Below are positions 4,122 through 29,122 of a stretch of 32,000 bases of DNA, in pieces. The stretch comes from Breznakia sp. PF5-3 (GTDB lineage: Bacteria; Bacillota_I; Bacilli_A; Erysipelotrichales; Erysipelotrichaceae). Both the position numbers and the translations under genes were made by a program. The notes under the pieces were generated by a model. The model was not told the DNA's origin. It ran no database searches and saw only the letters and a program-made list of their open reading frames with translations. The stretch spans positions 1-32,000 of the forward strand of contig NZ_JAQFIQ010000018.1 in the NCBI RefSeq assembly GCF_029504745.1. The letters are read 5' to 3'. How positions within the stretch are numbered: position 1 is the stretch's first letter; each line of letters opens with the position of its first letter.

Positions 4122-4913
4122 GTGAAAATGTGTAAGGCATTAAATATTTCGAGATCTGGATATTATAAATACCAAGATAAGGTTGCAAAGGTTGATAATT
4201 ACAATGATATTGTAGTTAGAATATTTAATGATAATCAGAAAGTCTATGGAACACGGAAAATCAAGCATTCATTAGCGAAACAAGGTATTTGTATCTCGAG
4301 AAGGAGAATTGCACGGATTATGCATCAAAATGGACTTGTATCGGTATATACAGTGAAGAAATATAAAGTACATAAGACAACTGTTAATGAAGCAAAAATA
4401 GAAAATAAAGTAAATCGAGAATTTGATAACAGAAACCCAAAAGAAGTCATAGTAAGTGATTTAACGTACGTTAGAGTGAATAACCAATGGAATTACATTT
4501 GTGTAGTTATCGATTTGTATAACCGGGAGATTGTTGGTTATAGTTGTGGGAAATATAAAGATGCAAAACTTGTGAAACAAGCATTTTTAAGCATCAAAGG
4601 AAATCTATTTGAATACAATATTTTCCACACAGATAGAGGTAATGAATTTGATAATTATTTAATCGATAATGTATTAGAAACATTTGGAATTGACAGATCC
4701 TTAAGTAGGAAAGGAAATCCATACGACAATGCAGTTGCAGAAGCACATTTCAAAATAATCAAAACTGAATTCGTCCGCGAAAGAACGTTTGCATCATTGC
4801 TGAATTTGGAACAAGAATTATCCGCATACGTATATTGGTTCAACAATAAGCGAGTGCATTCAACTTTAGGTTATCAAAGTCCTGTGGAATATAGACAAAA
4901 CATGACCTTATAA
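4122..4913 (+). CDS. IS3-family transposase OrfB (rve integrase core, DDE)
   Basis: Contains VSDLTYV, the HTDRGNEF motif, and NPYDNAVAEAHFKIIKTEF followed by YNNKRVHSTLGYQSPVEY, the classical IS3 DDE/K-R pattern. The ORF-track start is a GTG, and homology extends upstream of it (VIRANAHKYSV). Confidence 0.85.
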   Translation: MKMCKALNISRSGYYKYQDKVAKVDNYNDIVVRIFNDNQKVYGTRKIKHSLAKQGICISRRRIARIMHQNGLVSVYTVKKYKVHKTTVNEAKIENKVNREFDNRNPKEVIVSDLTYVRVNNQWNYICVVIDLYNREIVGYSCGKYKDAKLVKQAFLSIKGNLFEYNIFHTDRGNEFDNYLIDNVLETFGIDRSLSRKGNPYDNAVAEAHFKIIKTEFVRERTFASLLNLEQELSAYVYWFNNKRVHSTLGYQSPVEYRQNMTL

Positions 4914-4983
4914 AATTTGTCTACAAAAGTGTTGCCATTCCAGAGACGTATGATACAAGAACAAGGTTTACAAGTATCATACA

Positions 4984-5019
4984 AGGAAAAAAATAAGATC
5001 AATTTTTATTGATCTTATT
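4984..5019 (-). terminator. Rho-independent terminator-like hairpin
   Basis: Perfect 12-bp arms, aataagatcaat-tttt-attgatcttatt. On the minus strand the hairpin is followed by ttttttt. Confidence 0.5.
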
Positions 5020-5063
5020 GAGTACAGATTTAGGGTATAAACCCCGTTAGAATTTATAGTGCC

Positions 5064-5092
5064 ATAAAAAACCGCAACGAAGTGTTGCGGTT
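5064..5092 (-). terminator. Rho-independent terminator downstream of tRNA-Asp
   Basis: Minus strand reads aaccgcaac-acttc-gttgcggtt followed by tttttta. Confidence 0.7.
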
Positions 5093-5108
5093 GAGATTAC
5101 AATTTAAG

Positions 5109-5146
5109 AAACCAGAATTTCTTAGGAAACTCTGGTTTGTTTTTTT
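5109..5146 (+). terminator. Plus-strand terminator-like hairpin with T-tract
   Basis: aaaccagaatttc-ttag-gaaactctggttt (13-bp arms, 1 mismatch) followed by gttttttt. Confidence 0.5.
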
Positions 5147-5217
5147 ACTAGACCCTACATTACTTTATAGGTTCATTCAATATAAACCTTATACTAATCT
5201 AAAGCCCTATTTTTTTA

Positions 5218-5293
5218 TGGCGGTCCAGATGGGACTCGAACCCACGATCTCCTCCGTGACAGGGAGGCATGTTAACCACTACACCACTGGACC
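5218..5293 (-). tRNA. tRNA-Asp (anticodon GUC), CCA encoded
   Basis: I folded it by hand. The 7-bp acceptor pairs GGTCCAG with CTGGACC. The D-arm is GTGT/ACAT. The anticodon stem pairs CCTCC with GGAGG around the loop CTGTCAC. The T-arm is GTGGG-TTCGAGT-CCCAT. The discriminator is G, followed by CCA. Confidence 0.93.
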
Positions 5294-5316
5294 ATTTTCT
5301 TTTGCTGACGAAGTTT

Positions 5317-5345
5317 ATTCTATCAAATATTTGCACAATACGCAA
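5317..5345 (-). promoter_or_regulatory. Candidate sigma-70 promoter for tRNA-Asp
   Basis: Minus strand reads TTGCGT, 17 nt, TAGAAT. The -10 element ends about 23 nt upstream of the mature tRNA 5' end. Confidence 0.45.
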
Positions 5346-5398
5346 GCGTTTTAGAACAATTTTTTGAAAAAAATAGATTTCTCAGCAAAAGATCTGTT

Positions 5399-6187
5399 TT
5401 ATCCTTGTATAAACTGCCTTAAATACGAATTTAACTCTTCCAAATGTTTCTTTTCATCGACTGCTTTTGATGTAATTTCGTATTCATTAACATCTTTTAT
5501 ATATTTCTTGTATATATCACCATACTGGAAAGGGTGAATCGGATCTTGTTGGTTTGATAAAATCATTGTTGGTGCCTTTATTTTTTCAAGATCAGCTAGT
5601 TTATTTATTGGTTGTTTTGAAGGCATGATTTTAAATTTATTTGGATTTTTAATTGCATTAGGATCATCAAAGAAACGAAGCAATGAAGCTGCTACTTGTG
5701 GTGTTTCTTCTATCAGTCTCTTATACATATCATCTTGTATAAATAATTCTTTACCATTTTCCATATGGAGATATTTTTCCATATTTTCAAACCATGTCTT
5801 AATTTGTTTCTCCATCGGTTGATCCAACCATGCAATACGGATTAACACTAAACCTTTTACAAATTCTGGATAGCGTATCGCTATATTTGTAGAAACTCCT
5901 GCTCCCATTGATATTCCTGCTAAATAGAATTGTTCCAATTTTAAATACTTGGCTAAACCTATAACATCATCTGCTAATGTATCAAAGTCTAAAGTTTTCC
6001 AATCTGTAATTTCGCTTTTCCCATGTCCCCTTTGATCAAGCACAATAAGCTTTACACCTTCGATAGGTTTGTATACGTTTTTAGGTTGTTCAATATCTCC
6101 ACCCAAGCCATGAAGGAAAATAAATGGTATTCCTTCACCAATAACTTCATAGTTAAGTTCTACTAAGTTTCTTACAAAATATGACAT
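5399..6187 (-). CDS. Alpha/beta-fold hydrolase
   Basis: HGLGGD oxyanion region and nucleophile elbow GISMGAG. SD aaggag lies upstream of the ATG. Confidence 0.85.
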   Translation of the reverse strand: MSYFVRNLVELNYEVIGEGIPFIFLHGLGGDIEQPKNVYKPIEGVKLIVLDQRGHGKSEITDWKTLDFDTLADDVIGLAKYLKLEQFYLAGISMGAGVSTNIAIRYPEFVKGLVLIRIAWLDQPMEKQIKTWFENMEKYLHMENGKELFIQDDMYKRLIEETPQVAASLLRFFDDPNAIKNPNKFKIMPSKQPINKLADLEKIKAPTMILSNQQDPIHPFQYGDIYKKYIKDVNEYEITSKAVDEKKHLEELNSYLRQFIQG

Positions 6188-6199
6188 CCAATTTCTCCT

Positions 6200-7021
6200 T
6201 TATAGTTTCTCTTCCAAAAATTCTATACTACTTGAAATCTGATCAACTGATAATCCATGCATAATTAGTGGACCATCATAAGCATATTTTTTTAATAACG
6301 CTATATATGTATTATAATCTAAAATTCCTTCTCCTGCAGCAACAAATGCAATATCCGATGTATTTGCTAAATCCTTTGCATGTGCTAAAACAATATCTTT
6401 CCCTAAATATATAAATGCTTCCTTTAATACTTCTTCCATATTTTCTACTTGTGATGGTAGAAAAAGATTTGCTCCATCCATTACAATTTTCAAATTTGAA
6501 CTATTGAATGTATCTAAGTATGTTCTTGCTTTTAATGGCGTATTCACAATATTACTAGCTTCGGTTTCTACACCTAAAATAATATTATGTGTTTCTGCAC
6601 TTTTTAAAATCTGACTTGTTGTATCCAATAAATCTTCCCATGCTTCTGGAGTATCATTATTTGGATGCCATTTCCATTTACTTTCTCTATTCTTACTACC
6701 TGTACATAGTGTAATGATTGTAATTTGCAATTCTTTTGCAATTTTACATAATATATCAAATTGCTTTATCCCCTCATTTCTTTTTTCAATATCTGGATCA
6801 ATCATATTGAATGTACCTGATAACGCATCTAGATGAATATCATACTTCTTTGCTAAATGCTTAATCTCCTTTAGCTTTGCTTTATCAATTTCATCTGGCA
6901 TGGTTGGTAAACCTGCAGATGATAGATTAAACTGCGTATGATGAATTCCATATGCGCTCATTTCTTTAAATGTTTCTTCTAAAGATAAATTCCAAGTTTT
7001 TGAAAAAATACCAATTTCCAT
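6200..7021 (-). CDS. Sugar phosphate isomerase/epimerase (xylose-isomerase-like TIM barrel)
   Basis: 273-aa ORF with family-typical length and pattern. Its start overlaps the upstream stop by 1 nt (TAATG). Confidence 0.8.
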   Translation of the reverse strand: MEIGIFSKTWNLSLEETFKEMSAYGIHHTQFNLSSAGLPTMPDEIDKAKLKEIKHLAKKYDIHLDALSGTFNMIDPDIEKRNEGIKQFDILCKIAKELQITIITLCTGSKNRESKWKWHPNNDTPEAWEDLLDTTSQILKSAETHNIILGVETEASNIVNTPLKARTYLDTFNSSNLKIVMDGANLFLPSQVENMEEVLKEAFIYLGKDIVLAHAKDLANTSDIAFVAAGEGILDYNTYIALLKKYAYDGPLIMHGLSVDQISSSIEFLEEKL

Positions 7022-8109
7022 TATAAGTTTCCTCCTACTTCCTTTATTACAATCCTTTTTCCATTTGCTTGTACCGATTGATGGGTAGCAATTAATGCTT
7101 TTAGTGTTGCTATTCCATCTTCTATCGTTGCGCCAAGTTGTTTGCTTCCATTTAAAATAGTATCACTAAAACCTTCCAACTGTCTTCTAAAGAAATGACC
7201 ATCTTCATCATATGGACTTGTTGTAAGCTTTTTTGTATCATTCCAACAAATTACATCTGATGTTCGAAAAATCCATGGATTATACGTTTTTACTTCAATG
7301 GTTCCATTTGTTCCATAAATTTGCATTCCTTCATGCCAGTCTTTTCTAGCAGCGATTGTAAGATCCAAGTTACCAATTGCACCATTTGCAAATTCACAAG
7401 CAATTAACCAAGAATATAATCCATCTTTTTGCACATGTTTCGCCTCAACTGAAACAATCTCTCCCATCATATAACGCGCTGTATCAAACAAATGACTTGC
7501 ATGTCCTAATAAGTAATACACTTCTTTGTTTTCCTTAGGGTCGCCTTTTGGCTTCTTCATTGTAACACTTGAATATAAAACTGGCATAACATTATCACAT
7601 ACCTTATAACGTTGACTACTATCACAATACCACGCTTTAAATGTTGTTACATCACCTATTTCCTCTTTTATAAAACGATTTGCAAATTGTAACCCTGCAT
7701 CAAAACGTTTCATATTTCCAACTTGAAAAATCAAGTTTTCCTTAGCAAGTAACGCTTGTAGTTCTTCACATTCTTCTACAGATACACCCAATGGTTTTTC
7801 AACCAATACATGCTTCCCCGCTAAAATAGCTTGTTTTGCACACATTGCATGAAATTGGTCTGCAACCCCGATAATTATTGCATCCACCATTGGATCTTTC
7901 AACATTTCTTTATAATCACTATATACTTTTTGGGGATGATATAATTCTTCCATTCGATCTAGCAAATCTTTTGCAATATCACAAATCGCATACAATTCAA
8001 CATTTTTAGCCTTCTGTGCAGCTTCAAAATGAGCAGCTTGGCAAATTGTTCCACATCCTAAGATGCCAACTTTTAAGGTTCTTTCATCTTTCTTCACATT
8101 TGTATTCAT
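7021..8109 (-). CDS. Gfo/Idh/MocA-family NAD(P)-dependent oxidoreductase
   Basis: N-terminal Rossmann motif KVGILGCGTICQAAHF and the VLVEKPLG motif. I prefer the ATG at 8109 (MNTNVKK, SD aaggag 8 nt upstream) over the track's GTG at 8115. Confidence 0.88.
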   Translation of the reverse strand: MNTNVKKDERTLKVGILGCGTICQAAHFEAAQKAKNVELYAICDIAKDLLDRMEELYHPQKVYSDYKEMLKDPMVDAIIIGVADQFHAMCAKQAILAGKHVLVEKPLGVSVEECEELQALLAKENLIFQVGNMKRFDAGLQFANRFIKEEIGDVTTFKAWYCDSSQRYKVCDNVMPVLYSSVTMKKPKGDPKENKEVYYLLGHASHLFDTARYMMGEIVSVEAKHVQKDGLYSWLIACEFANGAIGNLDLTIAARKDWHEGMQIYGTNGTIEVKTYNPWIFRTSDVICWNDTKKLTTSPYDEDGHFFRRQLEGFSDTILNGSKQLGATIEDGIATLKALIATHQSVQANGKRIVIKEVGGNL

Positions 8110-8133
8110 AATCACATCTCCTTATCTACCATC

Positions 8134-8162
8134 AGTATAGGTTGGCAAACCAACACATTCAA
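8134..8162 (-). promoter_or_regulatory. Sigma-70 promoter of the oxidoreductase operon, with a palindrome in the spacer
   Basis: Minus strand reads TTGAAT-gtgttggtttgccaacc(17)-TATACT. The spacer contains GTTGG-tttg-CCAAC. Confidence 0.55.
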
Positions 8163-8194
8163 GCATTGTTTATGCTGTTTTATGCGTGTTTCGA

Positions 8195-8938
8195 TTACAT
8201 TATTCGATTTTGTGAATACAAAGTTTTTATTTCTTTTATCTTTTCATCTTCACAAATTAAGATATCAATATCACTTAGATCTGCTACTTTATACTTTGAT
8301 CGTTTCTGAATTCGATTAGGTGTCGTTAGGACAACAACTTGATTTGCTGTTGCTATAAACTGTTGTTTAATACTAATTTCCACTTCAAAAGGGACACTAA
8401 TACCAAAATCTGCATCAATCGCATGAGCACCTAGAAAGCAAATATCTGGATGAAACATAGACAACTGTTGTGTAGCATTATATCCTACATTCGTCATTGA
8501 TTCATGTAAATAGTCACCACCTAAAACAATTACTTTTATATTTACATGATTTGCTAATTCATTAGCAATAGGAAAACTATTAGTCAAAACTTCTAACTTC
8601 ATATTCATTGGTAATAGTTTTGCTATCATCTTATTCGTAGAGCTTCCATCAATGGCAATCAATTGGTTTTCCTGAATTAAAGAAATCGCTTTTTTAGCTA
8701 CCTGGTACTTGGCTATACTTTCTTCTTGTTCTCGCTCAATATAATTAGCAACTGGAAGGTGATGTGGCAAAGCTCCTCCAAATACACGTTTTAGTAATCC
8801 TTGATTTTCCATCTCTTGCAAATCTCGACGAACTGTATCTTTTGAAATATGATATTCGCTGGCAAGGTCATTGACAATGACTTTCCCCTTCATCCTTAAA
8901 ACATTTAAAATTGCTTGTTGTCTTTCTTCTTTCAACAT
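8195..8938 (-). CDS. DeoR/GlpR-family transcriptional regulator
   Basis: N-terminal HTH ILNVLRMKGKVIVNDLASEYHISKDTVRRDLQEME plus a DeoR C-terminal sugar-sensor domain. Its SD (aggag) overlaps the stop codon of the upstream gene. Confidence 0.9.
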   Translation of the reverse strand: MLKEERQQAILNVLRMKGKVIVNDLASEYHISKDTVRRDLQEMENQGLLKRVFGGALPHHLPVANYIEREQEESIAKYQVAKKAISLIQENQLIAIDGSSTNKMIAKLLPMNMKLEVLTNSFPIANELANHVNIKVIVLGGDYLHESMTNVGYNATQQLSMFHPDICFLGAHAIDADFGISVPFEVEISIKQQFIATANQVVVLTTPNRIQKRSKYKVADLSDIDILICEDEKIKEIKTLYSQNRIM

Positions 8939-8947
8939 AGTTTACTC

Positions 8948-9763
8948 CTATAACGCTTGTAAGATCCTCATATAAAAAGTTTCTGGATCTTCATTTTCCT
9001 TGTTTTTTATAACGTTAATATGATAACTCTCTAAAATTGTTTCTAATTCGCTAATATCTTTAGGGTTTTCTGTATAGATATAAAAATAAATTGTGTTCTC
9101 ATTTTCATGTTTATGAAAATAACGAACTCGAGCATTTAACACTGCCCATATATCAATTTCACTATAATCCAATCCAAAGCCAATCATATGAACCTCTTTT
9201 AAAAACATAAAATCAATCCAACTATGATATGCTTTTAAAAAATCATCTTGTTCTATATATGCATTCATTTTACCAACTACTTTCGCATACATATTTTGCC
9301 CTAAAACAATACTTCGAGGATATTTAAGTTCCCCATGAACATGCCATATAGATTTATCTTCTACACAATTCCTTGTTGTAATACGATACACCTTTTCAGC
9401 AGCCATATCTGGAATTGTATTCTGTATTTTAAATTCTTTTTGCACACTATTTTCCAACGTATAATCATAGTTTGTTGTAATGATATTCGAAATCGACAAA
9501 TCCATTATTTGCTTATGAATTACAGTTGGTAACAAATGCTTCATTTTTTTAACTATTGCTTTTAATAAATCCCCTTCCTTAAATTGTAGATTTCGCTTCG
9601 AACGAAAATAAATTTCCTCATAAAGAACTGGAAAAGGTTTATTCCCATTCATGATTTCCTTATTCGTTTGCGTATCCTTTTTCAATTCTTCCAATAAATC
9701 CGCCCAAGAATATCCTGAATGAATCCGATTGATTCCATTCCCTACAAATAGTACCTTATCCAT
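8948..9763 (-). CDS. Stand-alone SIR2-like superfamily protein (SIR2_2 / DUF4917 / AbiH-like motifs), 271 aa
   Basis: Motif series VLFVGNGINR ... IITTNYDYTLE ... WHVHGE ... MIGFGLDYSEIDIW. This matches the G-x-G / TTNYD / HxHG / small-loop-D pattern of defence-associated SIR2-like NADase domains. No additional sensor domain is present. Confidence 0.75.
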   Translation of the reverse strand: MDKVLFVGNGINRIHSGYSWADLLEELKKDTQTNKEIMNGNKPFPVLYEEIYFRSKRNLQFKEGDLLKAIVKKMKHLLPTVIHKQIMDLSISNIITTNYDYTLENSVQKEFKIQNTIPDMAAEKVYRITTRNCVEDKSIWHVHGELKYPRSIVLGQNMYAKVVGKMNAYIEQDDFLKAYHSWIDFMFLKEVHMIGFGLDYSEIDIWAVLNARVRYFHKHENENTIYFYIYTENPKDISELETILESYHINVIKNKENEDPETFYMRILQAL

Positions 9764-9772
9764 AGTCGCTCC

Positions 9773-10396
9773 TTACGTTATTTCAAATCCTAGCATTTTT
9801 GCAATTATTACTGCTTGATCATAACGAATTTTAACATTTCTACAATCACGTAAATCTATTCCTAATGAATCAAACTCACAACTAGATAAGTCCAATCCTT
9901 TTATCACCGTATCATGTAAATCAACTTTATCAAGATTTGATTTTACAAACATTAATTCTTTATGTTCAACCTCTTGTAATGAGGCTTCACTTAAATCCGA
10001 ATTATGAAAACTCACATGAGTAAGATTACTAAGTGATACATTAGCATAATGCAAATTGGATTCATGAAATGCAACATTCTTCATTTTTGTTTTATAAAAA
10101 CTCGTTCCGATAAACTTACAATTTGCAAACCGTACTCGATAAAATAACGATTCATCAAATTGGACATTTGAAAAGTCTATCTTTTCAAAAATAACATCTA
10201 AACATTCAAGTTTTAATAATGCCTTATCTGCAAAAAAGCAGTTTTCAAATTTAACTTCATCAAATTTATTTGTTTCTTCTATCCCCTCAATATGACAATT
10301 CTTATAGTGTGTATTGCTCTTAATATCACTTATAGTTAACGCTTTATCATCTATGATTTCTTCATAATGCTCAATTGGATCTATCCGCTTTTTCAT
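9773..10396 (-). CDS. Pentapeptide-repeat protein of the Qnr/MfpA (DNA-mimic) type
   Basis: Continuous A(D/N)LXX-type repeats (NVQFDESLFYRVRFANCKFIGTSFYKTKMKNVAFHESNLHYANVSLSNLTHVSFHNSDLSEASL). The C-terminal tail YDQAVIIAKMLGFEIT resembles the tails of chromosomal Firmicute Qnr-like proteins. I chose the ATG at 10396 (MKKRIDP, SD ggagagg 6 nt upstream) rather than the track start at 10426. Confidence 0.85.
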   Translation of the reverse strand: MKKRIDPIEHYEEIIDDKALTISDIKSNTHYKNCHIEGIEETNKFDEVKFENCFFADKALLKLECLDVIFEKIDFSNVQFDESLFYRVRFANCKFIGTSFYKTKMKNVAFHESNLHYANVSLSNLTHVSFHNSDLSEASLQEVEHKELMFVKSNLDKVDLHDTVIKGLDLSSCEFDSLGIDLRDCRNVKIRYDQAVIIAKMLGFEIT

Positions 10397-10414
10397 ATTG
10401 TACCTCTCCACTCT

Positions 10415-10420
10415 ATTATA
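10415..10420 (-). promoter_or_regulatory. Perfect TATAAT -10 box upstream of the pentapeptide gene (weak -35)
   Basis: The minus strand reads tataat 18 nt upstream of the ATG at 10396. It overlaps the T-tract of the preceding terminator, and the -35 is poor (tagtta). Confidence 0.35.
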
Positions 10421-10451
10421 AAACAAAAAAGAGAGTATAACTATACTCTCT
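10421..10451 (-). terminator. Rho-independent terminator of the SipW fibre operon
   Basis: Minus strand reads agagagtat-agtt-atactctct followed by tttttgttt. It sits 39 nt after the stop codon at 10490. Confidence 0.75.
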
Positions 10452-10489: not shown

Positions 10490-11185
10490 TTATTCATACG
10501 CATACTTCTTCTTCACTCTTAGGATAGTACCACATATAATAATGACCCCACTAATAATTAATACAATCCATATCTCTTCTATATTCACATCATCGCCTGT
10601 GCTAATTGTACCAGCTTTATCCGGTGTTTTCTCTGGTGTTTTATCTGGTACTTTATCAGGTGTTTTTTCTGGTGTTTGTGTTGCATATAAAACCCAATCA
10701 AATGATGCATTTGCTTTTTGAAATTCATTTGTGAATTTATCACCTGGAAAATAATAATGAATTGTTAGTAAAGATACATCTTCTACATGTATATATCCTA
10801 AATCAAGTCCTGTTTCAACACTATTGCCAAAAGCTTGTTTATCTTGAAACAAATTCCCCCTATATAAAGTTTTATCTTTATAAACAACTTCAATCTCCAT
10901 ATATTCCAACACTTCTTTAGGATTACTTTTTTCATTTTTGTGAAACAGGGTCAGATGATATGGTACATCTAACGTATTTGTAATCCTGAAAGAACGAGTG
11001 ATAACATCGCCTGGAAGAATTTTATCAGAGTAAACAAAGTTACCTGATGAATCCTTTTCTATTGTCAATCCATCACTATCTCCAACAACACTAACATCTG
11101 GTAATTCAATATCATTTGCTGAGATTGATATAAGAGAACTAGCGAATACTATGCTTATTACAAAAATCCATCGCCATTTCTTGAT
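10490..11185 (-). CDS. Secreted, C-terminally membrane-anchored TasA-like-fold protein with a TP(E/D)K stalk; probable non-ATG (ATC) start
   Basis: The track ORF starts at a TTG (11068). The same frame, however, is open upstream to a TGA at 11191-11189 and encodes a complete signal peptide, (I)KKWRWIFVISIVFASSLISISA/NDIELP. GGAGG lies 8 nt upstream of the ATC at 11185-11183. The C-terminus is TPEKTPDKVPDKTPEKTPDK-AGTISTGDD, then a TM helix, then RVKKK. Confidence 0.6.
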   Translation of the reverse strand: MKKWRWIFVISIVFASSLISISANDIELPDVSVVGDSDGLTIEKDSSGNFVYSDKILPGDVITRSFRITNTLDVPYHLTLFHKNEKSNPKEVLEYMEIEVVYKDKTLYRGNLFQDKQAFGNSVETGLDLGYIHVEDVSLLTIHYYFPGDKFTNEFQKANASFDWVLYATQTPEKTPDKVPDKTPEKTPDKAGTISTGDDVNIEEIWIVLIISGVIIICGTILRVKKKYAYE

Positions 11186-11220
11186 ATTTCACTCCTCCTT
11201 TCAAACTACGATTATTTAAA

Positions 11221-12144
11221 CTATTTTACAGTTACTGTTTTACCGCTAATTGTTGCATTCCATCCATTGTCATCCAATGCACTTTGGTCTGCTTGAATAG
11301 CTTCTAACATTGGTGTTACTTTAAATATTGCACCTTTGTATTCATTTCCTAAAGATGAAGCAAATTCTACTTTTTCAAGTAATGAAGTTGTTGTTTCATT
11401 ACCAGCTAATAATTTTGTATAGTAGTACCAACCTGTATTTGGATCTAATGACCAATCTGTAGAAGCTGTACTAGCAAACTTCAATGTGATTCCTGCATGT
11501 GCGAAATCTGCATCTGGTGTTGTTGTTTTTCCATGGAATCCTAATTTTGCATTTGTTGTATCTTGTACATAATATGCATATTTAAAAGTTTTTGCTACTG
11601 GATCATATTGAACAAGACGGTTTGTTCCATCATTTAGGTAAGCAAAATATTCAACTTTTTCTCCACCTGTACCATTTAAATCACTTTGTTTTCTTTCGAA
11701 AACCAACACTTTACTTGGAGCACCAACAGATGCAGTTACATCATTATATCCAGATGCTTTTAAATCAGCAATTTCACGATCACTCATCTTCACAATAATT
11801 TGATCTTTTCCTAATGTTGTACTTGTATTGTAGCCAATTTCAATATTACCAGCTTGATCCAATTCCATTAGAATTAATTCTTTTTTAATTTTTACACGTA
11901 CTGCAGCATCTGCATTACCTTTATTTTGAACCCCAACTTCCTTGTTGATTTCAGTTCCAGGAACTACTGGTTCTGGGTTAAATTTTTCCGTAATTACTAC
12001 ATCAAATACATCAAAGTTGAAAATATTTTCAATTTCATCCTTTGCTGTAAACCATAGGAATGTTGAAGATAGCACTAATACTAATGCAAGGACTCCAGCA
12101 CCTAACGTTATTTTACTCTTTTTTGATTTTTTGTTTTCGTTCAT
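11221..12144 (-). CDS. SipW-dependent TasA/BsaA (camelysin-like) family fibre subunit
   Basis: The basic N-region KKSKKSK plus the TM segment and the FTAKDEIENIFNFDVFDVVITEKFNPEPVVPGTEINKEVGVQNKGNADAAVRV motif are typical of SipW-cognate exported proteins. The ATG at 12144 overlaps the sipW stop (ATGA), with SD aggag upstream. The 26-codon N-terminal extension in the track is discarded. Confidence 0.75.
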   Translation of the reverse strand: MNENKKSKKSKITLGAGVLALVLVLSSTFLWFTAKDEIENIFNFDVFDVVITEKFNPEPVVPGTEINKEVGVQNKGNADAAVRVKIKKELILMELDQAGNIEIGYNTSTTLGKDQIIVKMSDREIADLKASGYNDVTASVGAPSKVLVFERKQSDLNGTGGEKVEYFAYLNDGTNRLVQYDPVAKTFKYAYYVQDTTNAKLGFHGKTTTPDADFAHAGITLKFASTASTDWSLDPNTGWYYYTKLLAGNETTTSLLEKVEFASSLGNEYKGAIFKVTPMLEAIQADQSALDDNGWNATISGKTVTVK

Positions 12145-12686
12145 ACTTTTTCTCCTTCTAATATATTCTTTTTTGAACTTCGGTTTTTTAATACTTTCAT
12201 TGATACAATGAAACCAATACAAGAAATAACCATAGTTATTACAACCATTACATTCCTTTTAACAAAAGAACTGATATACCCAACCATTGGTAATTTCCCT
12301 TTCACAACCCCTATTACACGCGTAGCTTGAACCGGAGGGTCAATCGATTTGTTTGCATCTCCTTGTGTAATAAAGATAGGATTGTCACTTGCTTCATCTT
12401 GTATTTCAACTACTCGGTGAGTAACCGTAACCTCACCATCATCACTCGCTGTATATGTGATGATATCGCCAACTTTTATCTCATTTGGCCTTCTCACTTC
12501 AACTATTAATAAATCGCCTTTGCTTATTTGGGGGCTCATACTTTCTGATAACGCATCATAGAAGCGATATCCAAAGATCGATTTATCTTGACTCCCATTC
12601 ATTGAGAATAAGAATGCAAACAATACTACTGCGAATATGATTGTATAAAATACAATGTTTCCCATAACTTTTAAAAACTTCTTCAT
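12141..12686 (-). CDS. sipW: Signal peptidase I, SipW (archaeal/ER) type
   Basis: N-terminal TM segment, catalytic SESMSPQISKGD (Ser) and VTHRVV (His), and the C-terminal TM segment typical of SipW. Confidence 0.85.
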   Translation of the reverse strand: MKKFLKVMGNIVFYTIIFAVVLFAFLFSMNGSQDKSIFGYRFYDALSESMSPQISKGDLLIVEVRRPNEIKVGDIITYTASDDGEVTVTHRVVEIQDEASDNPIFITQGDANKSIDPPVQATRVIGVVKGKLPMVGYISSFVKRNVMVVITMVISCIGFIVSMKVLKNRSSKKNILEGEKV

Positions 12687-12689
12687 ATC

Positions 12690-13349
12690 CTACCACCGTA
12701 CTGTACTTTCATTCTCAATTTGTGGTCGTTTTTTCCATAATTCATATATTGCATTACTATCAGAACTTACAATAAGTGCTTCCACTTTAAAGGTAAGTAT
12801 GTATTTTTCTTGTGCATATATAGACGGTAAATCACCATGCATAGTCAATGAATTTAGGATTGGCTTTGTTGTATCTCCAGCCTTTAATACCTTTGTATAG
12901 TAATAGTATCCATCATTTCCATTCACCCATTCTGATCCATTTCCATCTGCCCAATAATTCGTCCATTGCTTTGTTACTGTATCAACCTCTTGTGTTGATG
13001 GAATACCATCATGATCAAAGGTATTCGATAGTGTCTTATCGTTATGCCAATATTCTAGATAGGTACATCGAATAATAACATCGGCATTCCCACGATTAGA
13101 AAATTGTACTTTTTTGGTAGCTGCTGTTCCAGGCACCCAATCTTCTACTTTAGGAAAGTCTTCAATAATCGAAACTTGATAGTAAGGTAGACTTAATACA
13201 TTTTCTATTTCATCATCAACAAGCAACCATAAATAGCTTTCATCTACTGCAAATGTCAATGTCAGCAACGAGAACGAGAAGCAAAGTGATGCTATGAAAA
13301 ATACAGCTTTTTTAATTTTTCTTCTTAATCTTCGTTTCTTTCTTTTCAC
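12690..13349 (-). CDS. SipW-dependent TasA/BsaA-like family protein (paralog 1)
   Basis: Highly basic N-region MKRKKRRLRRKIKK plus a TM segment, then DDEIENVLSLPYYQVSIIEDFPKVEDWVPGTAATKKVQFSNRGNADVIIR, the same motif as in 11221-12144. GTG start with a GAGG SD. Confidence 0.7.
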   Translation of the reverse strand: MKRKKRRLRRKIKKAVFFIASLCFSFSLLTLTFAVDESYLWLLVDDEIENVLSLPYYQVSIIEDFPKVEDWVPGTAATKKVQFSNRGNADVIIRCTYLEYWHNDKTLSNTFDHDGIPSTQEVDTVTKQWTNYWADGNGSEWVNGNDGYYYYTKVLKAGDTTKPILNSLTMHGDLPSIYAQEKYILTFKVEALIVSSDSNAIYELWKKRPQIENESTVRW

Positions 13350-13359
13350 ATCATTTACC

Positions 13360-15153
13360 TCACTTCACTGCATTTACATCTTCTATTTTTGTTATTGAAT
13401 CTTCCAAAACCACAACAGTATCATTCACAATCATTTCCACTACTAATTCATTTTGTGGTGGTGTTGGATACATGTCTTGTTTTGCTTTCAATACAACATT
13501 TTTCTTTATGAATGCAGATGATTTTAGCTCTGATGGTCCCCATTCAATATATGTTCTTCCATTACTATCGGTTTTAATACGTCCATCCCCTGCAGATACA
13601 ACTTCAAAATTATCATCTATGTAATATTTCGTATAAACATTTTTAAAGTTTCCGGAAATAACACCTGAGAATAAATCAAATGCTACTCCTAACTCATCTG
13701 TTGTTGTTACTTTTCTAAAGTTTTTCTCAACTGGTGCAGATGTTACATTTTCCATAAATTCTTGAACTTTATTTCCTAATCTCAAATCGTTAGGATTAGT
13801 AGATACAGGATAAGATGTCGTATCAAATAATCCAATACTGAAAATCGTAGCTCCTAAACCTAAAGCACTTCGTACATAATTACCACCTTTTTCACTTGAG
13901 AATGTTTCAGGTGATGCTGGATAGCTAGGATCACCAACATAAGGAATATAACTTGTATTATATAAACTATATTGCGAATTATTACGTACACTTCGATAGT
14001 CTTCCCAGGTATATCCAGAACCTAGTTTCACACCATAATATGGAATCCACTGATTTGTGGCATTATTTCCATATCCTATGAAAGATTCATTTGTTGAAGT
14101 CGTTTGTCCTCTAACACCTTTTAATATATTCGCTTGATTTTGCGCTTCTGCCATAACTTGGAATGTATTATTCACATATGTATAAGCTTTACTCTTATAC
14201 CAATCATAGTTATTTGAAGAAGGTCCATAGGATGGAACTACCCCACCTGGAACTCCATCGGTAAACAAGACTACAAATCGCTCATTGCTTGATTGATTAC
14301 GTTTTTCAAGTTGACGCCTTGCTTCTTTAAATCCAAGATCTGTCATTGTAATACCATCTACTTCCCAACTATCAATAATCGAATGGACACTAGTTGTATT
14401 AATTCCATTCAATGTCGTCCAATCCATTGCTACATCTGCATAACGACTATAGGTAATAATGGATAGCTTACTGTCTGGATGTGCATCAATAGACAATGCT
14501 TTAACAAACTCTTTGGTTGTTTCTTTTACTAGATGTAAACGACTATATTTAGGATCTGAAGGGATTCCTTTATAATCAATGTCATACGCCATGGTAAATG
14601 ATAAATCGACAACGAACACGACATCTACAGGTCGTGGTTGTGCTGGTTTTGGTTGTATTTCAAGATCTATAGAATATAATTTTTCTTTACTCCACTGACC
14701 AGCCAATAATTCGTTTTGTATCGACGCAAAAGAATAAAACGTTGGTAAGCTAACTGCTTCTATTATTATATCCACTGGTACTGCTTTCCCATTTACAACT
14801 TCTACATTAAATTTTGTTGAATTAACTTGCTGCATATAATCAACACTTGTTCTTTTAATTCTTAAACCCATCGGTTCAACCAAAGTAACACTATAGGTAC
14901 CATCTGCTAAATTAAAAAATGGTTCATAATTTCCAACCTCTACACAAGAATTTGTATTGGTTGGACCTTCAATTTTTATACCAATTTCACTATTCACAGG
15001 AGTAGCACTTCCGCTAACCATATGCGTTACAAATATAATAGCTCCTGTCGGTTCATTCGCAGAAACTTTAGTATTTTTCATTTCAGGCATCACTGTGATA
15101 CAAGAAAGGAATACGATAAACATCAAGATACTTTTATAAATTTTTCTTTTCAC
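13360..15153 (-). CDS. Secreted von Willebrand factor type A (VWA) domain protein with an N-terminal Ig-like domain; candidate adhesin
   Basis: Sec signal peptide (cleavage near VSA/NE). MIDAS-like VDVVFVVDLSFTM and VVLFTDGVPG motifs. GTG start with SD aaaggagg. Confidence 0.85.
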   Translation of the reverse strand: MKRKIYKSILMFIVFLSCITVMPEMKNTKVSANEPTGAIIFVTHMVSGSATPVNSEIGIKIEGPTNTNSCVEVGNYEPFFNLADGTYSVTLVEPMGLRIKRTSVDYMQQVNSTKFNVEVVNGKAVPVDIIIEAVSLPTFYSFASIQNELLAGQWSKEKLYSIDLEIQPKPAQPRPVDVVFVVDLSFTMAYDIDYKGIPSDPKYSRLHLVKETTKEFVKALSIDAHPDSKLSIITYSRYADVAMDWTTLNGINTTSVHSIIDSWEVDGITMTDLGFKEARRQLEKRNQSSNERFVVLFTDGVPGGVVPSYGPSSNNYDWYKSKAYTYVNNTFQVMAEAQNQANILKGVRGQTTSTNESFIGYGNNATNQWIPYYGVKLGSGYTWEDYRSVRNNSQYSLYNTSYIPYVGDPSYPASPETFSSEKGGNYVRSALGLGATIFSIGLFDTTSYPVSTNPNDLRLGNKVQEFMENVTSAPVEKNFRKVTTTDELGVAFDLFSGVISGNFKNVYTKYYIDDNFEVVSAGDGRIKTDSNGRTYIEWGPSELKSSAFIKKNVVLKAKQDMYPTPPQNELVVEMIVNDTVVVLEDSITKIEDVNAVK

Positions 15154-15403: not shown

Positions 15404-17044
<1,641 letters not shown>

Positions 17045-17326
17045 TTATTTTAAAATTGCCAATATACTCTCTTCTGCAACGATTGAATAATCTTTATCCT
17101 CGTATGTAATTGAAGTTGCTGCATATTCTTTATATACAACCTTATCTCCTTCTTTTACTTGCAGGGGAACCAATTTCCCATCAACAAATTTTCCCTTTCC
17201 ACATGCTACTACCGTAGCGATACTAGGTGTTTCTTTAGGACTACCACTTAAAATAATCCCACTCGAGGTCTTATTTTCAACCTCTTCTTTTACAAGTATT
17301 ACATTATCATGTAATGGTTCAAACAT
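17045..17326 (-). CDS. groES: Co-chaperonin GroES (Cpn10)
   Basis: 93 aa. Contains PLHDNVILVKEE...SGIIL (mobile loop). It lies 21 nt upstream of groEL. Confidence 0.96.
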   Translation of the reverse strand: MFEPLHDNVILVKEEVENKTSSGIILSGSPKETPSIATVVACGKGKFVDGKLVPLQVKEGDKVVYKEYAATSITYEDKDYSIVAEESILAILK

Positions 17327-18232: not shown

Positions 18233-18388
18233 TAAACTTGTAAATGAACTTTGGTTTGACACAAGTTAAGGTTGATGACAATTCTTTATCCTTCCCCAAT
18301 AACAAGAATTCTTCACCATGAAACTTTGCATAGAACTGGAAAGCACGTTACGCACTTTACTATTTATATGAAAAGGAGTATCTGTGTT

Positions 18389-19267
18389 ATGGAAATTATT
18401 AAAATAAAAGGATTACAAAAGAAGTTTGGTAAGTTTACTGCCTTACATGATGTATCACTTAGTGTTAACGCTGGTGAAGTTGTTGGTTTCATTGGACCAA
18501 ATGGAGCTGGAAAATCAACAACAATTCGTGTTTTGTTGGGGATTATCAATCGAGATGCTGGAGATGTAACCATCTTTAATCACGATGTATGGAAAGACAG
18601 CTTAGAAATTCATAAACGTATTTCTTACGTTCCTGGGGATGTTGCGCTTTGGGGAAACCTAACTGGGGGAGAGATTATTGATTTATTTATGAAATTGCAT
18701 GGTGGAGGAGATAAAACAAAGCGGGATTATTTAATCAATCGTTTTGAACTAGATCCAAAGAAAAAAGCCAAAAGTTATTCAAAGGGTAATCGCCAAAAAG
18801 TTGGATTGATTGCAGCCTTGTCGGTTGCATCAGATTTATATATATTTGATGAACCAACTTCTGGATTAGACCCTTTAATGGAAGCAGTATTTCAAGAAGA
18901 AATTGAGAAAATCAAAACCGAAGGAAAGGCTATCTTGCTCTCTTCCCACATATTAAGCGAGGTAGAACGATTAGCTGATAAAGTTGCAATTATTCGCCAA
19001 GGGAAAGTTGTTGAAACAGGAACACTTGATGAACTACGTCATTTAACTCGTTCTACAGTAACTATGGCTACAACCAAAGATGTAGAAGCGATGGCGAAAG
19101 TAAAAGGTGTTTATGATTTTGTGAAAAAGGGGAATCAAGCTACATTCTCTGTCGATAATCATCATATGAATGATATTATGGCAGAAGCAGTAAAATTAGG
19201 AGTTAAAAAATTTGAATCTGTACCACCAACGCTAGAAGATTTATTCATGCGTCATTATGCAGAATAG
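18389..19267 (+). CDS. ABC transporter ATP-binding protein
   Basis: Walker A GPNGAGKST, signature-like YSKGNRQKV and Walker B LYIFDEP. The ATG at 18389 (MEIIKIKGL) has SD aaaggag. The 39-codon extension in the track is non-coding. Confidence 0.92.
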   Translation: MEIIKIKGLQKKFGKFTALHDVSLSVNAGEVVGFIGPNGAGKSTTIRVLLGIINRDAGDVTIFNHDVWKDSLEIHKRISYVPGDVALWGNLTGGEIIDLFMKLHGGGDKTKRDYLINRFELDPKKKAKSYSKGNRQKVGLIAALSVASDLYIFDEPTSGLDPLMEAVFQEEIEKIKTEGKAILLSSHILSEVERLADKVAIIRQGKVVETGTLDELRHLTRSTVTMATTKDVEAMAKVKGVYDFVKKGNQATFSVDNHHMNDIMAEAVKLGVKKFESVPPTLEDLFMRHYAE

Positions 19268-20998: not shown

Positions 20999-21724
20999 TT
21001 ATATTCTTTTTGCTTCATAGGTGAATACTGCTTTATCACAACGAATATAACTCTCAGTATACTCTACAACATTACCATCTTTATCTTTGCCTAAGTACTC
21101 AAAGTAATATAAAGGATCATTGGTGTGAATTCCCATTTGCTTGGCAAGCTTCTCATCTGCTTCAATAATGATTAAGCGTTGTTCAAATTTTATTGGGAAG
21201 TGTCCTTTGGACTCCATATAATTATAAATCGAAACATTTTCAAAATTATGTTCATCTGCATCTTCAAAAAATTTAAATGGCATATAACAATACTCTACTC
21301 CAAAAGGCTCATCATTTGCATAACGCAAACGATGAACAACATATACATCTTCATACTTTGCCAAATTTAATTTTGACCCCAAATAATTAAATGCCTTTGT
21401 TAGCCCTTTTACTAGTACCTTATCTTTTCTTCTAACCCCTTGTTCACGAAATAAAGCACTAATTCCTGAAGCATCATCACTTCCCCAAGCTAACCGTTGT
21501 CGATGTTTACGTTGTACAAAGGTTCCTTTTCCATGTACACGAAATAAATAGCCTTCTTCTACAAGAGCATCAATCGCTTTTTTAACAGTCATTCGATTCA
21601 CTTCATAACTCTCTGCTAACTTGCGCTCACTTGGAATAGCCTCTCCAGGTAGATACTCTTTATTATTTACTTTTTGAACAATTGCATCTCTAATCTGTAT
21701 ATATATTGGCATCCGATAATCCAT
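20999..21724 (-). CDS. GntR-family (HutC subfamily, UTRA effector domain) regulator
   Basis: PIYIQIRDAIVQKV...LPGEAIPSERKLAESYEVNRMTVKKAIDALVEEGYLFRVHGKGTFV. The start is either the ATG at 21724 or the GTG at 21736. SD AGGAGG overlaps the stop codon of the upstream gene. Confidence 0.88.
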   Translation of the reverse strand: MDYRMPIYIQIRDAIVQKVNNKEYLPGEAIPSERKLAESYEVNRMTVKKAIDALVEEGYLFRVHGKGTFVQRKHRQRLAWGSDDASGISALFREQGVRRKDKVLVKGLTKAFNYLGSKLNLAKYEDVYVVHRLRYANDEPFGVEYCYMPFKFFEDADEHNFENVSIYNYMESKGHFPIKFEQRLIIIEADEKLAKQMGIHTNDPLYYFEYLGKDKDGNVVEYTESYIRCDKAVFTYEAKRI

Positions 21725-21740
21725 GTTCGTATCCACCCTC

Positions 21741-22466
21741 CTAACTTTTTTTCCCAGTTAAATCATCATTCACGTATACAAAGCGATTCATAATCATATA
21801 AGTCTCTGAGTATTCAATTGGTTTTCCATCAATAGATAATACCAAGCCCTGTTGCTTTACCAATTTTTCACCAACTGGTACATGTAAACTTTTCGATAAA
21901 AATTCATCACTTTCCACAACAATAATTTCTTGTTCAGAAGAATCAAGATCAATTAAATAATCTTCTTCTAAAATACTATAAAAAGATCGATTTTCTAAAT
22001 CTTTTTCCATCAGTGTAGGTGCTACATCACAAGGCACAAGCGATTCTTCGAGTGAAACAATTTCATCATCTACATAACGAAGACGATCAATAAAAAAACA
22101 CTTCGTTCCTATGGGAAGTTTAATTTTATTAAATAAATCTTTTCCTATTTCTTTTTTTTCAATACTGAGTAGTTTGATATGCTGCTGTTTTCCCATATCT
22201 GAAACTACCTGCGAGGTAGATGAAATTCGATACACATTCTTTTCGATGCGTCGTGGTGCTACATAGTAGCCACTACGCTCTCTTGAACAAATCCAACCTT
22301 CTTGAAGCAATATCTTTAACCCCGTACGAACGGTTGCTCTTTGCACATCAAGTTTCTCTGCCAATTCTCTTTCACTAGGTAATTTCTCACCCTCCAAAAT
22401 AGGAGTGTTTTCTATCATGTATTTAATTTCATTACATACGATAATATCAAGTGTTAACAATCTCAT
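21741..22466 (-). CDS. Second GntR-family (HutC/UTRA) regulator
   Basis: LEGEKLPSERELAEKLDVQRATVRTGLKILLQEGWICSRERSGYYV plus a UTRA-length C-terminal domain. Confidence 0.85.
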   Translation of the reverse strand: MRLLTLDIIVCNEIKYMIENTPILEGEKLPSERELAEKLDVQRATVRTGLKILLQEGWICSRERSGYYVAPRRIEKNVYRISSTSQVVSDMGKQQHIKLLSIEKKEIGKDLFNKIKLPIGTKCFFIDRLRYVDDEIVSLEESLVPCDVAPTLMEKDLENRSFYSILEEDYLIDLDSSEQEIIVVESDEFLSKSLHVPVGEKLVKQQGLVLSIDGKPIEYSETYMIMNRFVYVNDDLTGKKS

Positions 22467-22492
22467 GGTAATTTGAACCTCTTTCCTTGTTT

Positions 22493-22501
22493 ATTATACC
22501 A
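22493..22501 (-). promoter_or_regulatory. Extended -10 promoter element (TGGTATAAT) upstream of the GntR pair
   Basis: The minus strand reads tgGTATAAT 27 nt upstream of the ATG at 22466. Confidence 0.4.
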
Positions 22502-22528
22502 CATTAAAGTTTATAAAAAAGATATACC

Positions 22529-25116: not shown

Positions 25117-25124
25117 AAGTGCAC

Positions 25125-29120: not shown

Positions 29121-29122
29121 GA

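What the first reader, a model, noticed from the sequence alone, without database searches (positions are those of the whole stretch)
8948..10426. Coupled Qnr-type pentapeptide-repeat protein plus minimal SIR2/AbiH-like protein: candidate undescribed two-gene defence or toxin module
Seen in sequence:
- A 207-aa all-pentapeptide-repeat protein whose tail YDQAVIIAKMLGFEIT resembles that of chromosomal Firmicute Qnr homologues.
- Ten nt downstream, a 271-aa protein that is essentially nothing but a SIR2-like core, with motifs VLFVGNG, IITTNYDYTLE, WHVHGE and GFGLDYSEID.
- The two genes look translationally coupled, because the stop of gene 1 lies inside the SD of gene 2 (TAAGGAG). The same design links gene 2 to the downstream deoR (TAGGAG).
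- The pair begins immediately after a strong terminator and has its own TATAAT box.

Established knowledge:
- SIR2_2, DUF4917 and AbiH-like domains act as NAD+-depleting or abortive-infection effectors in Thoeris, DSR, SIR2-HerA and pAgo systems. In those systems they are always joined to a sensor domain or a partner protein.
- Pentapeptide-repeat proteins of the Qnr/MfpA type are DNA mimics that bind DNA-binding enzymes such as gyrase.

Inference:
- A sensor-less SIR2 effector paired with a DNA mimic could be a system in which the mimic acts as bait, sensor or antitoxin for the NADase.
- I do not recall a described defence system with this pairing.
Basis: partly seen in the sequence, partly recalled or inferred. 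Interest (0 to 1): 0.75.

Follow-up and report, generated by a model that had tools for sequence, protein, structure and literature searches.

The report
Qnr-like gene beside solo SIR2 gene
Two tightly packed genes in a Breznakia gut bacterium, a Qnr-like DNA-mimic protein and a bare SIR2 NAD-cleaving-type enzyme, are real, but they sit together only in this one genus and each occurs alone everywhere else, so they are probably two independent genes sharing a transcript, not a new two-gene defence system.

Summary
On the minus strand lie a 207-aa pentapeptide-repeat protein (9773-10396; best solved relative is EfsQnr) and, 9 nt downstream, a 271-aa protein that is only a SIR2_2 domain (8948-9763). 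Its catalytic Asn98 and His143 are intact, and its closest folds are ThsA, KomC and DSR2.

The two-gene-module interpretation is mostly not supported.
- The pair occurs only in Breznakia and close relatives, always at one chromosomal locus downstream of groES-groEL.
- Among 10 distinct close SIR2 loci (49-62% identity to the window protein), 5 have the pentapeptide gene and 5 lack it. Those lacking it keep an intact SIR2 gene that appears to be under purifying selection.
- None of 177 more distant SIR2 loci has a pentapeptide gene nearby.
- The three nearest outgroup pentapeptide proteins examined are solo.
- No fusion protein appeared among the 150 best of 1.84 billion representatives.

The window is not a defence island. 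More distant members of this solo-SIR2 family do occur on prophage contigs, on an ICE, and sometimes next to restriction or Septu genes.

Best reading: an EfsQnr-type topoisomerase protector is co-transcribed with an autonomous solo SIR2 enzyme, probably a single-gene NAD+-depleting defence. A regulatory link between the two is not excluded (about 10-15%).

The parts
9773..10396 (-). Pentapeptide-repeat protein (PRP), 207 aa, EfsQnr-like, with a C-terminal dimerisation-helix-like tail
   Evidence: ORF. Pfam Pentapeptide_4 3.8e-27. PDB 2W7Z EfsQnr 8.6e-20 over residues 28-207. NCBIfam Qnr model scores only 32.9 bits against a cut-off of 240. No PADLOC hit.
8948..9763 (-). Stand-alone SIR2_2 (SIRim-type) domain protein, 271 aa, with catalytic Asn98 in TTNYD and His143 in WHVHG
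   Evidence: PF13289 1.5e-11. ThsA 6LHX 1.3e-7, with TTNYD and HG aligned. N98 is invariant and H143 is invariant or nearly invariant in 23- and 104-sequence alignments. AF2 pLDDT 95.1, pTM 0.92. Foldseek hits: ThsA 1e-11, KomC TM 0.71/0.73, DSR2.
9764..9775 (-). Gene junction: the PRP stop TAA overlaps the SIR2 Shine-Dalgarno (TAAGGAG), with a 9-nt spacer
   Evidence: Sequence read directly. In the orthologous pairs the junction is a 4-nt overlap instead.
10430..10451 (-). Intrinsic-terminator-like hairpin with a T-run, ending the upstream matrix-protein cluster just before the PRP ribosome-binding site
   Evidence: Scan result; sequence.
8195..8938 (-). DeoR-family regulator, coupled to the SIR2 stop (TAGGAG). 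A neighbour, not part of the pair in other genomes
   Evidence: Pfam DeoRC 2.9e-40 and HTH_DeoR 4.7e-17. Absent next to SIR2 in L001, L008, L095 and L089.
15404..17326 (-). groES-groEL, the marker of the ancestral locus shared by PRP-SIR2 pairs in other Breznakia-type genomes
   Evidence: Cpn60 5.8e-70. groES ORF at 17045-17326. groES-groEL lies directly upstream of PRP-SIR2 in L001, L002, L008, L095 and L096.
10490..15153 (-). VWA / BsaA / SipW / BsaA / 192-aa cluster inserted between groEL and the PRP in this genome only
   Evidence: VWA domain. TIGR04090 BsaA family twice, and SipW signal peptidase. No PADLOC hits.

Best explanation
These are two separately functioning genes that share a transcript at a vertically inherited chromosomal locus in Breznakia.

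Gene 1 is an EfsQnr-type pentapeptide-repeat DNA mimic. Its most likely job is to bind and protect (or modulate) DNA gyrase or topoisomerase IV. This is inferred from homology.

Gene 2 belongs to a widespread family of roughly 270-310-aa proteins that consist of only a SIR2_2 ('SIRim') domain. It most likely cleaves NAD+ using Asn98 and His143. It probably acts on its own as a single-gene, abortive-infection-type effector that is kept inactive until triggered, as for other defence SIR2 domains, which are activated by oligomerisation or filament formation. This is inferred from fold, catalytic residues and the mobile-element contexts of distant relatives.

The adjacency arose once in an ancestor of Breznakia. 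It has been kept in some lineages and lost in others, and SIR2 does not depend on it.
For: Shown:
- Domain identities.
- The pair occurs only in the window, B. pachnodae (L008) and metagenomic relatives (L001-3, L088, L095/96). In the loci long enough to show it, the pair lies in the region downstream of groESL.
- PRP and SIR2 distances among the five pairs are congruent. For window vs L008, dN is 0.34 and 0.32. For L008 vs L001, 0.12 and 0.14. This indicates co-inheritance, not repeated assembly.
- PRP-less close relatives are L004/5, L006/7, L089, L090 and L091. L004 branches beside the PRP-bearing pachnodae clade in the SIR2 tree. All keep N98 and H143.
- These PRP-less genes also look constrained: omega is 0.077 for L089 vs L090 and 0.08-0.09 for L004 vs the pachnodae clade, although dS is near or beyond saturation.
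- 0 of 79 genome loci, 16 viral loci, 80 metagenome loci, L098 and L099 have a PRP within the flanks.
- PRPs at 46%, 41% and 36% identity are solo.
- No protein matched both halves of a fused PRP+SIR2 query among the 150 best of 1.84 billion representatives.
- Distant solo SIR2 genes lie on IMG/VR contigs beside integrase, tail, holin, methylase, restriction-endonuclease, KAP, TIR and AbiJ genes. One lies in a Salmonella ICE. Others sit next to Type I restriction, Septu and PD-T7 genes in some genomes.

Inferred: NADase activity, the trigger and the defence role; gyrase protection by the PRP.
Against: - The PRP-SIR2 junction has survived divergence at which synonymous sites are saturated (dS > 1), while both flanks were rearranged. 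In four lineages the genes overlap by 4 nt. That is more persistence than an indifferent adjacency needs.
- The PRP-less loci are mostly short metagenomic contigs, so a PRP elsewhere in those genomes cannot be excluded.
- In Breznakia and Chitinophaga the SIR2 gene sits in stable, housekeeping-like positions rather than in defence islands. This sits uneasily with a purely anti-phage role.
- No activity of either protein has been measured.
Confidence: 0.6

Rival explanations
1. This is a true two-gene module. The PRP DNA mimic binds the solo SIR2 enzyme as inhibitor, bait or sensor. One version: a phage DNA-binding protein titrates the mimic away and so unleashes NAD+ depletion. This would be a lineage-specific elaboration of an otherwise autonomous SIR2.
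For: - The genes are translationally coupled or overlapping, and the junction is conserved in five diverged lineages despite rearranged flanks.
- The two genes have diverged in parallel.
- Both are under strong purifying selection: omega 0.035-0.06 for the PRP and 0.07-0.09 for SIR2.
- There is a precedent for a minimal SIR2 controlled by a small partner. KomC (264 aa) works with KomB in the Kongming system (PMC13454610).
Against: - The adjacency is confined to one genus-level lineage and one locus.
- 5 of 10 close SIR2 loci lack the PRP but keep the catalytic residues and look constrained. This excludes an obligate antitoxin and argues against an obligate sensor.
- 0 of 177 distant loci show the pairing, and no fusion proteins were found.
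- The same kind of coupling joins SIR2 to an unrelated deoR.
- No defence genes lie nearby.
Confidence: 0.13
2. The solo SIR2 protein is not an immune effector. It is a housekeeping or stress enzyme, such as an NAD+-dependent ADP-ribosyltransferase or deacylase, or an NAD+ regulator linked to DNA or topological stress. Its neighbours (a gyrase-protecting PRP here, AlkA/AlkB-type repair genes in Chitinophaga) would then reflect a shared DNA-damage theme.
For: - The chromosomal position is stable across Breznakia-type genomes and across 17-21 Chitinophaga species. There the order is HhH-GPD glycosylase, then AlkB-like oxygenase, then SIR2 after a 14-nt gap.
- In L001, L008 and L095 an AraC regulator with a GyrI-like domain lies next to the pair.
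- Base composition is host-like.
- The gene is under purifying selection.
Against: - The fold and sequence match the defence-type SIR2 clade (ThsA, KomC, DSR2), not canonical sirtuins.
- The protein has a single cysteine, so it has no Zn-ribbon module (sequence).
- Most neighbours across genera are unrelated to each other.
- Relatives occur on prophage contigs and on an ICE among defence genes.
Confidence: 0.12
3. The adjacency is a chance consequence of dense, co-oriented gene packing, and the SIR2 gene is an inert remnant with no current function.
For: Nearly all genes in this part of the window are co-oriented, with gaps of a few nucleotides.
Against: - SIR2 has omega 0.07-0.09 in unsaturated comparisons.
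- The catalytic residues are invariant or nearly so across 104 homologues.
- The AF2 model is very confident.
Confidence: 0.03

Closest known systems
EfsQnr (Enterococcus faecalis chromosomal Qnr-like PRP, PDB 2W7Z)
   Same: Best solved-structure match: E 8.6e-20, aligned over residues 28-207 of 207. It is similar in size (207 vs 211 aa) and all pentapeptide repeats, with a C-terminal helix-like tail matching the EfsQnr dimerisation helix. It is also chromosomal in a Firmicute. EfsQnr confers fluoroquinolone resistance and acts on gyrase (PMC8145042).
   Different: It is only distantly related. It fails the NCBIfam Qnr-family model (32.9 bits against a cut-off of 240). It has an unaligned 27-residue N-terminus. 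No gyrase or quinolone data exist for it.
ThsA SIR2 domain (Thoeris NADase; PDB 6LHX, 8BTO)
   Same: Closest by sequence (1.3e-7) and by fold (Foldseek 1e-11, TM 0.69 normalised to the query). The TTNYD Asn and the HG His align with those of ThsA.
   Different: There is no SLOG or other sensor domain: the whole protein equals the ThsA SIR2 domain. No ThsB/TIR gene is in the window.
KomC of the Kongming system (PDB 8ZSF, 8ZSI)
   Same: It is a SIR2-only protein of the same size (264 vs 271 aa), with TM 0.71/0.73. It shows that a minimal SIR2 can be controlled by a small separate partner and can act as a filamentous NADase (PMC13454610).
   Different: No sequence-level match was found at E <= 1. 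There are no KomA deaminase or KomB HAM1 neighbours; the neighbour here is a PRP.
AbiH / SIRim-type stand-alone proteins (PF14253; FAM118-like)
   Same: These are SIR2-like antiviral proteins placed in the SIRim group (doi 10.1101/2024.09.18.613514). A few homologues of the window protein also carry PF14253 hits or the name AbiH (P0019, P0037, P0063).
   Different: The window protein gives no PF14253 hit at E <= 1.

Membership tests
SIR2_2 / SIRim defence-type SIR2 domain (PF13289) | Profile match above the curated threshold | tested here: met
   45 bits against a cut-off of 24.5, E 1.5e-11.
SIR2_2 / SIRim defence-type SIR2 domain (PF13289) | Catalytic Asn and His equivalent to those of ThsA | tested here: met
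   N98 (TTNYD) and H143 (WHVHG) align to TTNYD and MHG of ThsA. N98 is invariant and H143 is invariant or at least 90% conserved in 23- and 104-sequence alignments.
SIR2_2 / SIRim defence-type SIR2 domain (PF13289) | Rossmann-type SIR2 fold without the sirtuin Zn module | tested here: met
   AF2 pLDDT 95.1. The 50 best PDB matches listed are all ThsA, KomC/KomBC or DSR2. The protein has only one Cys.
SIR2_2 / SIRim defence-type SIR2 domain (PF13289) | NAD+ hydrolase activity | not testable with these tools
   Needs an enzyme assay.
Thoeris (ThsA + ThsB) | SLOG or Macro sensor domain on ThsA, and a TIR-domain ThsB gene nearby | tested here: not met
   The protein is 271 aa and consists of the SIR2 domain only. 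No TIR family was reported for any of the 33 window ORFs scanned with Pfam.
Kongming (KomA/KomB/KomC) | Adjacent HAM1-type KomB and deaminase KomA genes | tested here: not met
   The neighbours are the PRP and DeoR. KomC resembles this protein by fold only.
AbiH (PF14253) | Match to the AbiH profile | tested here: not met
   No PF14253 hit at E <= 1.
Qnr family (NCBIfam NF033086) | Score above the equivalog cut-off | tested here: not met
   32.9 bits against 240.
EfsQnr/MfpA-type topoisomerase-binding PRPs | Contiguous pentapeptide-repeat beta-helix plus a C-terminal dimerisation helix | tested here: met
   Pfam Pentapeptide_4 in 3 stretches. Full-length alignment to 2W7Z including the tail. 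The tail is conserved in the four aligned orthologues. This is sequence-level evidence only.
EfsQnr/MfpA-type topoisomerase-binding PRPs | Binds gyrase or protects it from quinolones or toxins | not testable with these tools
   Needs MIC and supercoiling assays.
Two-gene toxin-antitoxin or sensor-effector defence module | The partner genes co-occur across lineages and contexts, and the effector is not kept without its partner | tested here: not met
   The pair occurs only at one locus in one lineage. 5 of 10 close SIR2 loci and 177 of 177 distant loci lack a PRP. The outgroup PRPs are solo.
Two-gene toxin-antitoxin or sensor-effector defence module | Location in a defence island or on a mobile element | tested here: not met
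   The window neighbours are groESL, biofilm-matrix genes, sugar catabolism genes, regulators and transporters. The only PADLOC hits were generic ABC-ATPase matches. For distant solo-SIR2 relatives the picture is mixed.
Two-gene toxin-antitoxin or sensor-effector defence module | Physical interaction or domain fusion of the two components | tested here: inconclusive
   No fusion appeared among the 150 best hits of a fused query against 1.84 billion representatives. Complex prediction could not be run.

The most novel reading that the evidence does not exclude
In Breznakia, an otherwise autonomous solo SIR2 NADase has recruited a Qnr-like DNA mimic as an accessory regulator. The mimic could serve as a decoy that senses phage DNA-binding or gyrase-targeting proteins, or as a brake that couples NAD+ depletion to the state of the topoisomerases. 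That would be a first case of a pentapeptide-repeat DNA mimic acting as the sensing part of an immune system.
Probability: 0.1. Interest if true: 0.65.

Novelty: new member of a known kind. Interest (0 to 1): 0.27.

Why it matters
If the pair were a real module, it would add a new sensing principle (a DNA mimic as bait) to NAD+-depleting immunity. The evidence here argues against that.

What remains useful is the family itself. It is a widespread, uncharacterised set of SIR2-only proteins of about 270-310 aa, with invariant catalytic residues and no conserved partner, and some members sit on prophages and on an ICE. This family is a reasonable candidate for a single-gene NADase defence, and it raises the question of how a sensor-less SIR2 domain is kept off. 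The Breznakia PRP is an ordinary addition to the chromosomal Firmicute Qnr-like proteins.

Tried and rejected
- The word-indexed protein search with the PRP alone found only the query itself. A four-sequence profile was needed to reach relatives.
- The first metagenome scan, using the PRP alignment, found nothing because the chosen peptide patterns lay in the variable N-terminus. The second scan, using the close SIR2 clade, returned only relatives at 24-47% identity, none with a PRP.
An earlier version of that alignment had also placed the PRP-only rows on the SIR2 half. No interface test was therefore possible.
- I first thought the window pair lay in a different genomic context from B. pachnodae, which would have meant the pair moved as a unit. 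I rejected this once groES-groEL was found upstream in the window as well.
- The weak NCBIfam hit of the PRP to the Hailong effector HalA (49.5 bits against a cut-off of 250) reflects repeat similarity only. A literature search on it gave nothing.
- The PADLOC hits of the SIR2 protein to ThsA, LmuA, PDC-S25 and SIR2 models are domain-level only (E 1e-10 to 5e-4). They are not system membership.
- tblastn at E <= 10 found no PRP remnants upstream of the PRP-less SIR2 genes.
Full report
**What is there**

The window comes from Breznakia sp. PF5-3: the SIR2 and PRP proteins are 100% identical to NCBI entries from that organism. On the minus strand, a terminator-like hairpin (10451-10430, then TTTTTGTTTT) ends a cluster of SipW-dependent matrix-protein genes. 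It is followed by GGAGAGG and an ATG at 10396.

The pentapeptide-repeat protein (PRP) that starts there is 207 aa (9773-10396). It scores Pentapeptide_4 3.8e-27. It aligns over residues 28-207, tail included, to EfsQnr (2W7Z, E 8.6e-20). Its stop codon lies in the Shine-Dalgarno of the next gene (TAAGGAGCGACTATG, 9-nt spacer).

That next gene (8948-9763, 271 aa) is a SIR2_2 domain and nothing else.
- Pfam PF13289 scores 1.5e-11, above the curated cut-off.
- The ThsA SIR2 domain aligns at 1.3e-7, with TTNYD and HG in register.
- AF2 gives pLDDT 95.1 and pTM 0.92.
- Foldseek matches ThsA, the 264-aa KomC of Kongming (TM 0.71/0.73) and DSR2.
- N98 and H143 are invariant or nearly so across 104 homologues.

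Two details need correcting. The spacer is 9 nt, not 10. The 'own TATAAT box' is only a hexamer 18 nt from the ATG, whose -35 position falls inside the terminator, and the promoter scan called nothing there.

**Is the pair a unit?**

I surveyed both genes in other genomes. PRP-SIR2 pairs with a 4-nt overlap exist in:
- Breznakia pachnodae (L008);
- beetle-gut and other metagenomic contigs (L001-3, L088, L095/96).

In these, the PRP is 53-56% and the SIR2 59-61% identical to the window proteins.

At first the window seemed to hold the pair in a different context. However, the gene at 15404-17023 is groEL and the one at 17045-17326 is groES. The order groES-groEL-PRP-SIR2 is also the arrangement in L001, L008 and L095. 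The window differs only by a five-gene VWA/BsaA/SipW insertion and a different downstream neighbour. Every pair on a contig long enough to show its surroundings therefore occupies one ancestral locus. The two genes have diverged in parallel, as expected for vertical co-inheritance.

**Independence of the two genes**

Five of the ten distinct close SIR2 loci have no PRP:
- L004/5: HisKA, then SIR2, then FHA-FtsW. This is the same region as L095 but shorter.
- L006/7.
- L089 and L090: SIR2 followed by the orthologue of the window's abhydrolase gene at 5399-6187.
- L091.

In the SIR2 tree the PRP-bearing loci are not a clade. L004 branches beside the pachnodae group, and the window groups with the PRP-less L091 and L006. 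This points to an ancestral pair with at least one loss, and probably three or more.

The PRP-less SIR2 genes keep all catalytic residues. They also look constrained: omega is 0.077 for L089 vs L090 and 0.08-0.09 for L004 vs the pachnodae clade, against 0.07-0.09 for the paired SIR2 genes. In the PRP-less comparisons dS is near or beyond saturation.

Outside this clade no SIR2 locus has a PRP in its flanks by tblastn at relaxed thresholds, and an HMM built from the PRP alignment also found none in the genome loci:
- 79 genome loci;
- 16 IMG/VR loci;
- 80 metagenome loci;
- a Salmonella locus;
- the 43%-identical P0130.

The nearest outgroup PRPs examined (46%, 41% and 36% identity) are solo genes. 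A fused PRP+SIR2 query against 1.84 billion representatives returned only PRP-only or SIR2-only proteins among its 150 best hits.

An obligate antitoxin role for the PRP is thus excluded. An obligate sensor role is unlikely.

**What the SIR2 gene probably is**

It belongs to a broad family of solo SIR2-only proteins, found in Bacteroidota, Chloroflexota, Gammaproteobacteria and Firmicutes. The family has no conserved partner gene: 88 distinct immediate neighbours gave 98 Pfam families, none present in more than two neighbours.

Some members sit in typical defence or mobile settings:
- next to Type I restriction, Septu, PD-T7-1/-5, PDC-S26 and HepT genes;
- inside a PFGI-1-type ICE beside a helicase and Dnd-related genes in Salmonella Infantis;
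- on IMG/VR contigs among integrase, tail, holin, methylase, restriction-endonuclease, KAP, TIR and AbiJ genes.

Others sit in stable housekeeping positions. In Chitinophaga the order is HhH-GPD glycosylase, AlkB-like oxygenase, SIR2. The Breznakia locus itself is another example.

The window contains no defence island and shows no compositional anomaly.

I therefore favour an autonomous NAD+-consuming effector of the defence-type SIR2 clade. Its activity and its trigger are inferred, not shown.

**What the PRP probably is**

It is a chromosomal Firmicute EfsQnr-like protein. EfsQnr confers fluoroquinolone resistance and is thought to act as a gyrase inhibitor, and it dimerises through its C-terminal helix (PMC8145042). 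The window protein fails the NCBIfam Qnr model and has no PADLOC match. Its function is inferred from homology only.

**Comparison with known systems and novelty**

No described system pairs a PRP with SIR2. The closest functional analogy for 'a minimal SIR2 plus a small partner' is KomB-KomC of Kongming. The closest analogy for a SIR2-type gene acting on its own is AbiH, which one search lists among the SIR2-type antiphage proteins; that it works as a single gene is my own knowledge.

The conserved overlapping junction keeps a regulatory link possible, at roughly 10-15%.

Verdict: the genes are real and correctly identified, the pairing is ordinary, and interest is low to moderate. What interest there is rests mainly on the uncharacterised solo-SIR2 family.

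Noticed in passing
window 10490-15153 (- strand): A VWA-domain protein (597 aa), two BsaA-family SipW-dependent matrix proteins, a SipW signal peptidase and a 192-aa protein with a TPEK/TPDK repeat and a C-terminal hydrophobic segment. The cluster is inserted between groEL and the PRP here but is absent at that place in B. pachnodae-type loci.
   Followed up: partly
window 4122-4913 (+ strand): IS3-family transposase (E 6.3e-75) that matches only positions 105-369 of the 369-position profile, so it is probably a truncated or frameshifted copy. It lies about 4 kb from the pair.
   Followed up: no
L016, L021, L029 and about 15 more Chitinophaga loci (e.g. L016:3207-7478): The order HhH-GPD glycosylase, AlkB-like 2OG-Fe(II) oxygenase, solo SIR2 (about 14-nt gap), META-domain protein is conserved across 17-21 Chitinophaga species. 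This associates the solo SIR2 family with DNA-alkylation repair genes.
   Followed up: partly
L098 (Salmonella Infantis SARB27, AFYI01000007.1) 4912-8945: A solo SIR2 homologue (34% identity) is cargo inside a PFGI-1-type integrative conjugative element. It lies directly after an 873-aa ResIII/DEAD helicase and a few kb from DGQHR-domain and DndE genes.
   Followed up: partly
L105:3054-6446, L106:3054-6446, L111:3055-6235 (IMG/VR contigs): A possible three-gene cassette: a 312-aa ORF overlapping the SIR2 start, then SIR2 (303-310 aa), then a 449-504-aa ORF after no more than about 10 nt. Its components were not identified individually. Other viral-contig neighbours include TIR_2/SEFIR, KAP NTPase and AbiJ domains.
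   Followed up: no
L001:553-1393 and L002:984-1824: AbiEii (nucleotidyltransferase toxin) is split into two ORFs of 97 and 191 aa just upstream of groES. It is probably a decayed AbiE system about 3 kb from the PRP-SIR2 pair.
   Followed up: no
L004:435-5218 compared with L095:1188-13238: L004 goes straight from the 622-aa histidine kinase to SIR2 to FHA-FtsW. It lacks the transketolase, DUF6198, groESL, PRP and AraC/GyrI-like genes that lie in between in L095. This is a large local rearrangement that removed the PRP but kept SIR2.
   Followed up: partly
window 18272-19267 (+ strand): An ABC-transporter ATPase gives PADLOC hits to mad3, AriA and mad8 (best 3.2e-27). NCBIfam shows it to be an ordinary DrrA-type ABC ATPase, so these hits are false positives for defence.
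   Followed up: yes
window 20999-30169 (- strand): Two tandem GntR/UTRA regulators, a GNAT acetyltransferase, a MatE exporter, mannose-family PTS IIC and IID components, an AP_endonuc_2 TIM-barrel protein and a SIS-domain protein. Together they look like a sugar or amino-sugar catabolic operon.
   Followed up: no
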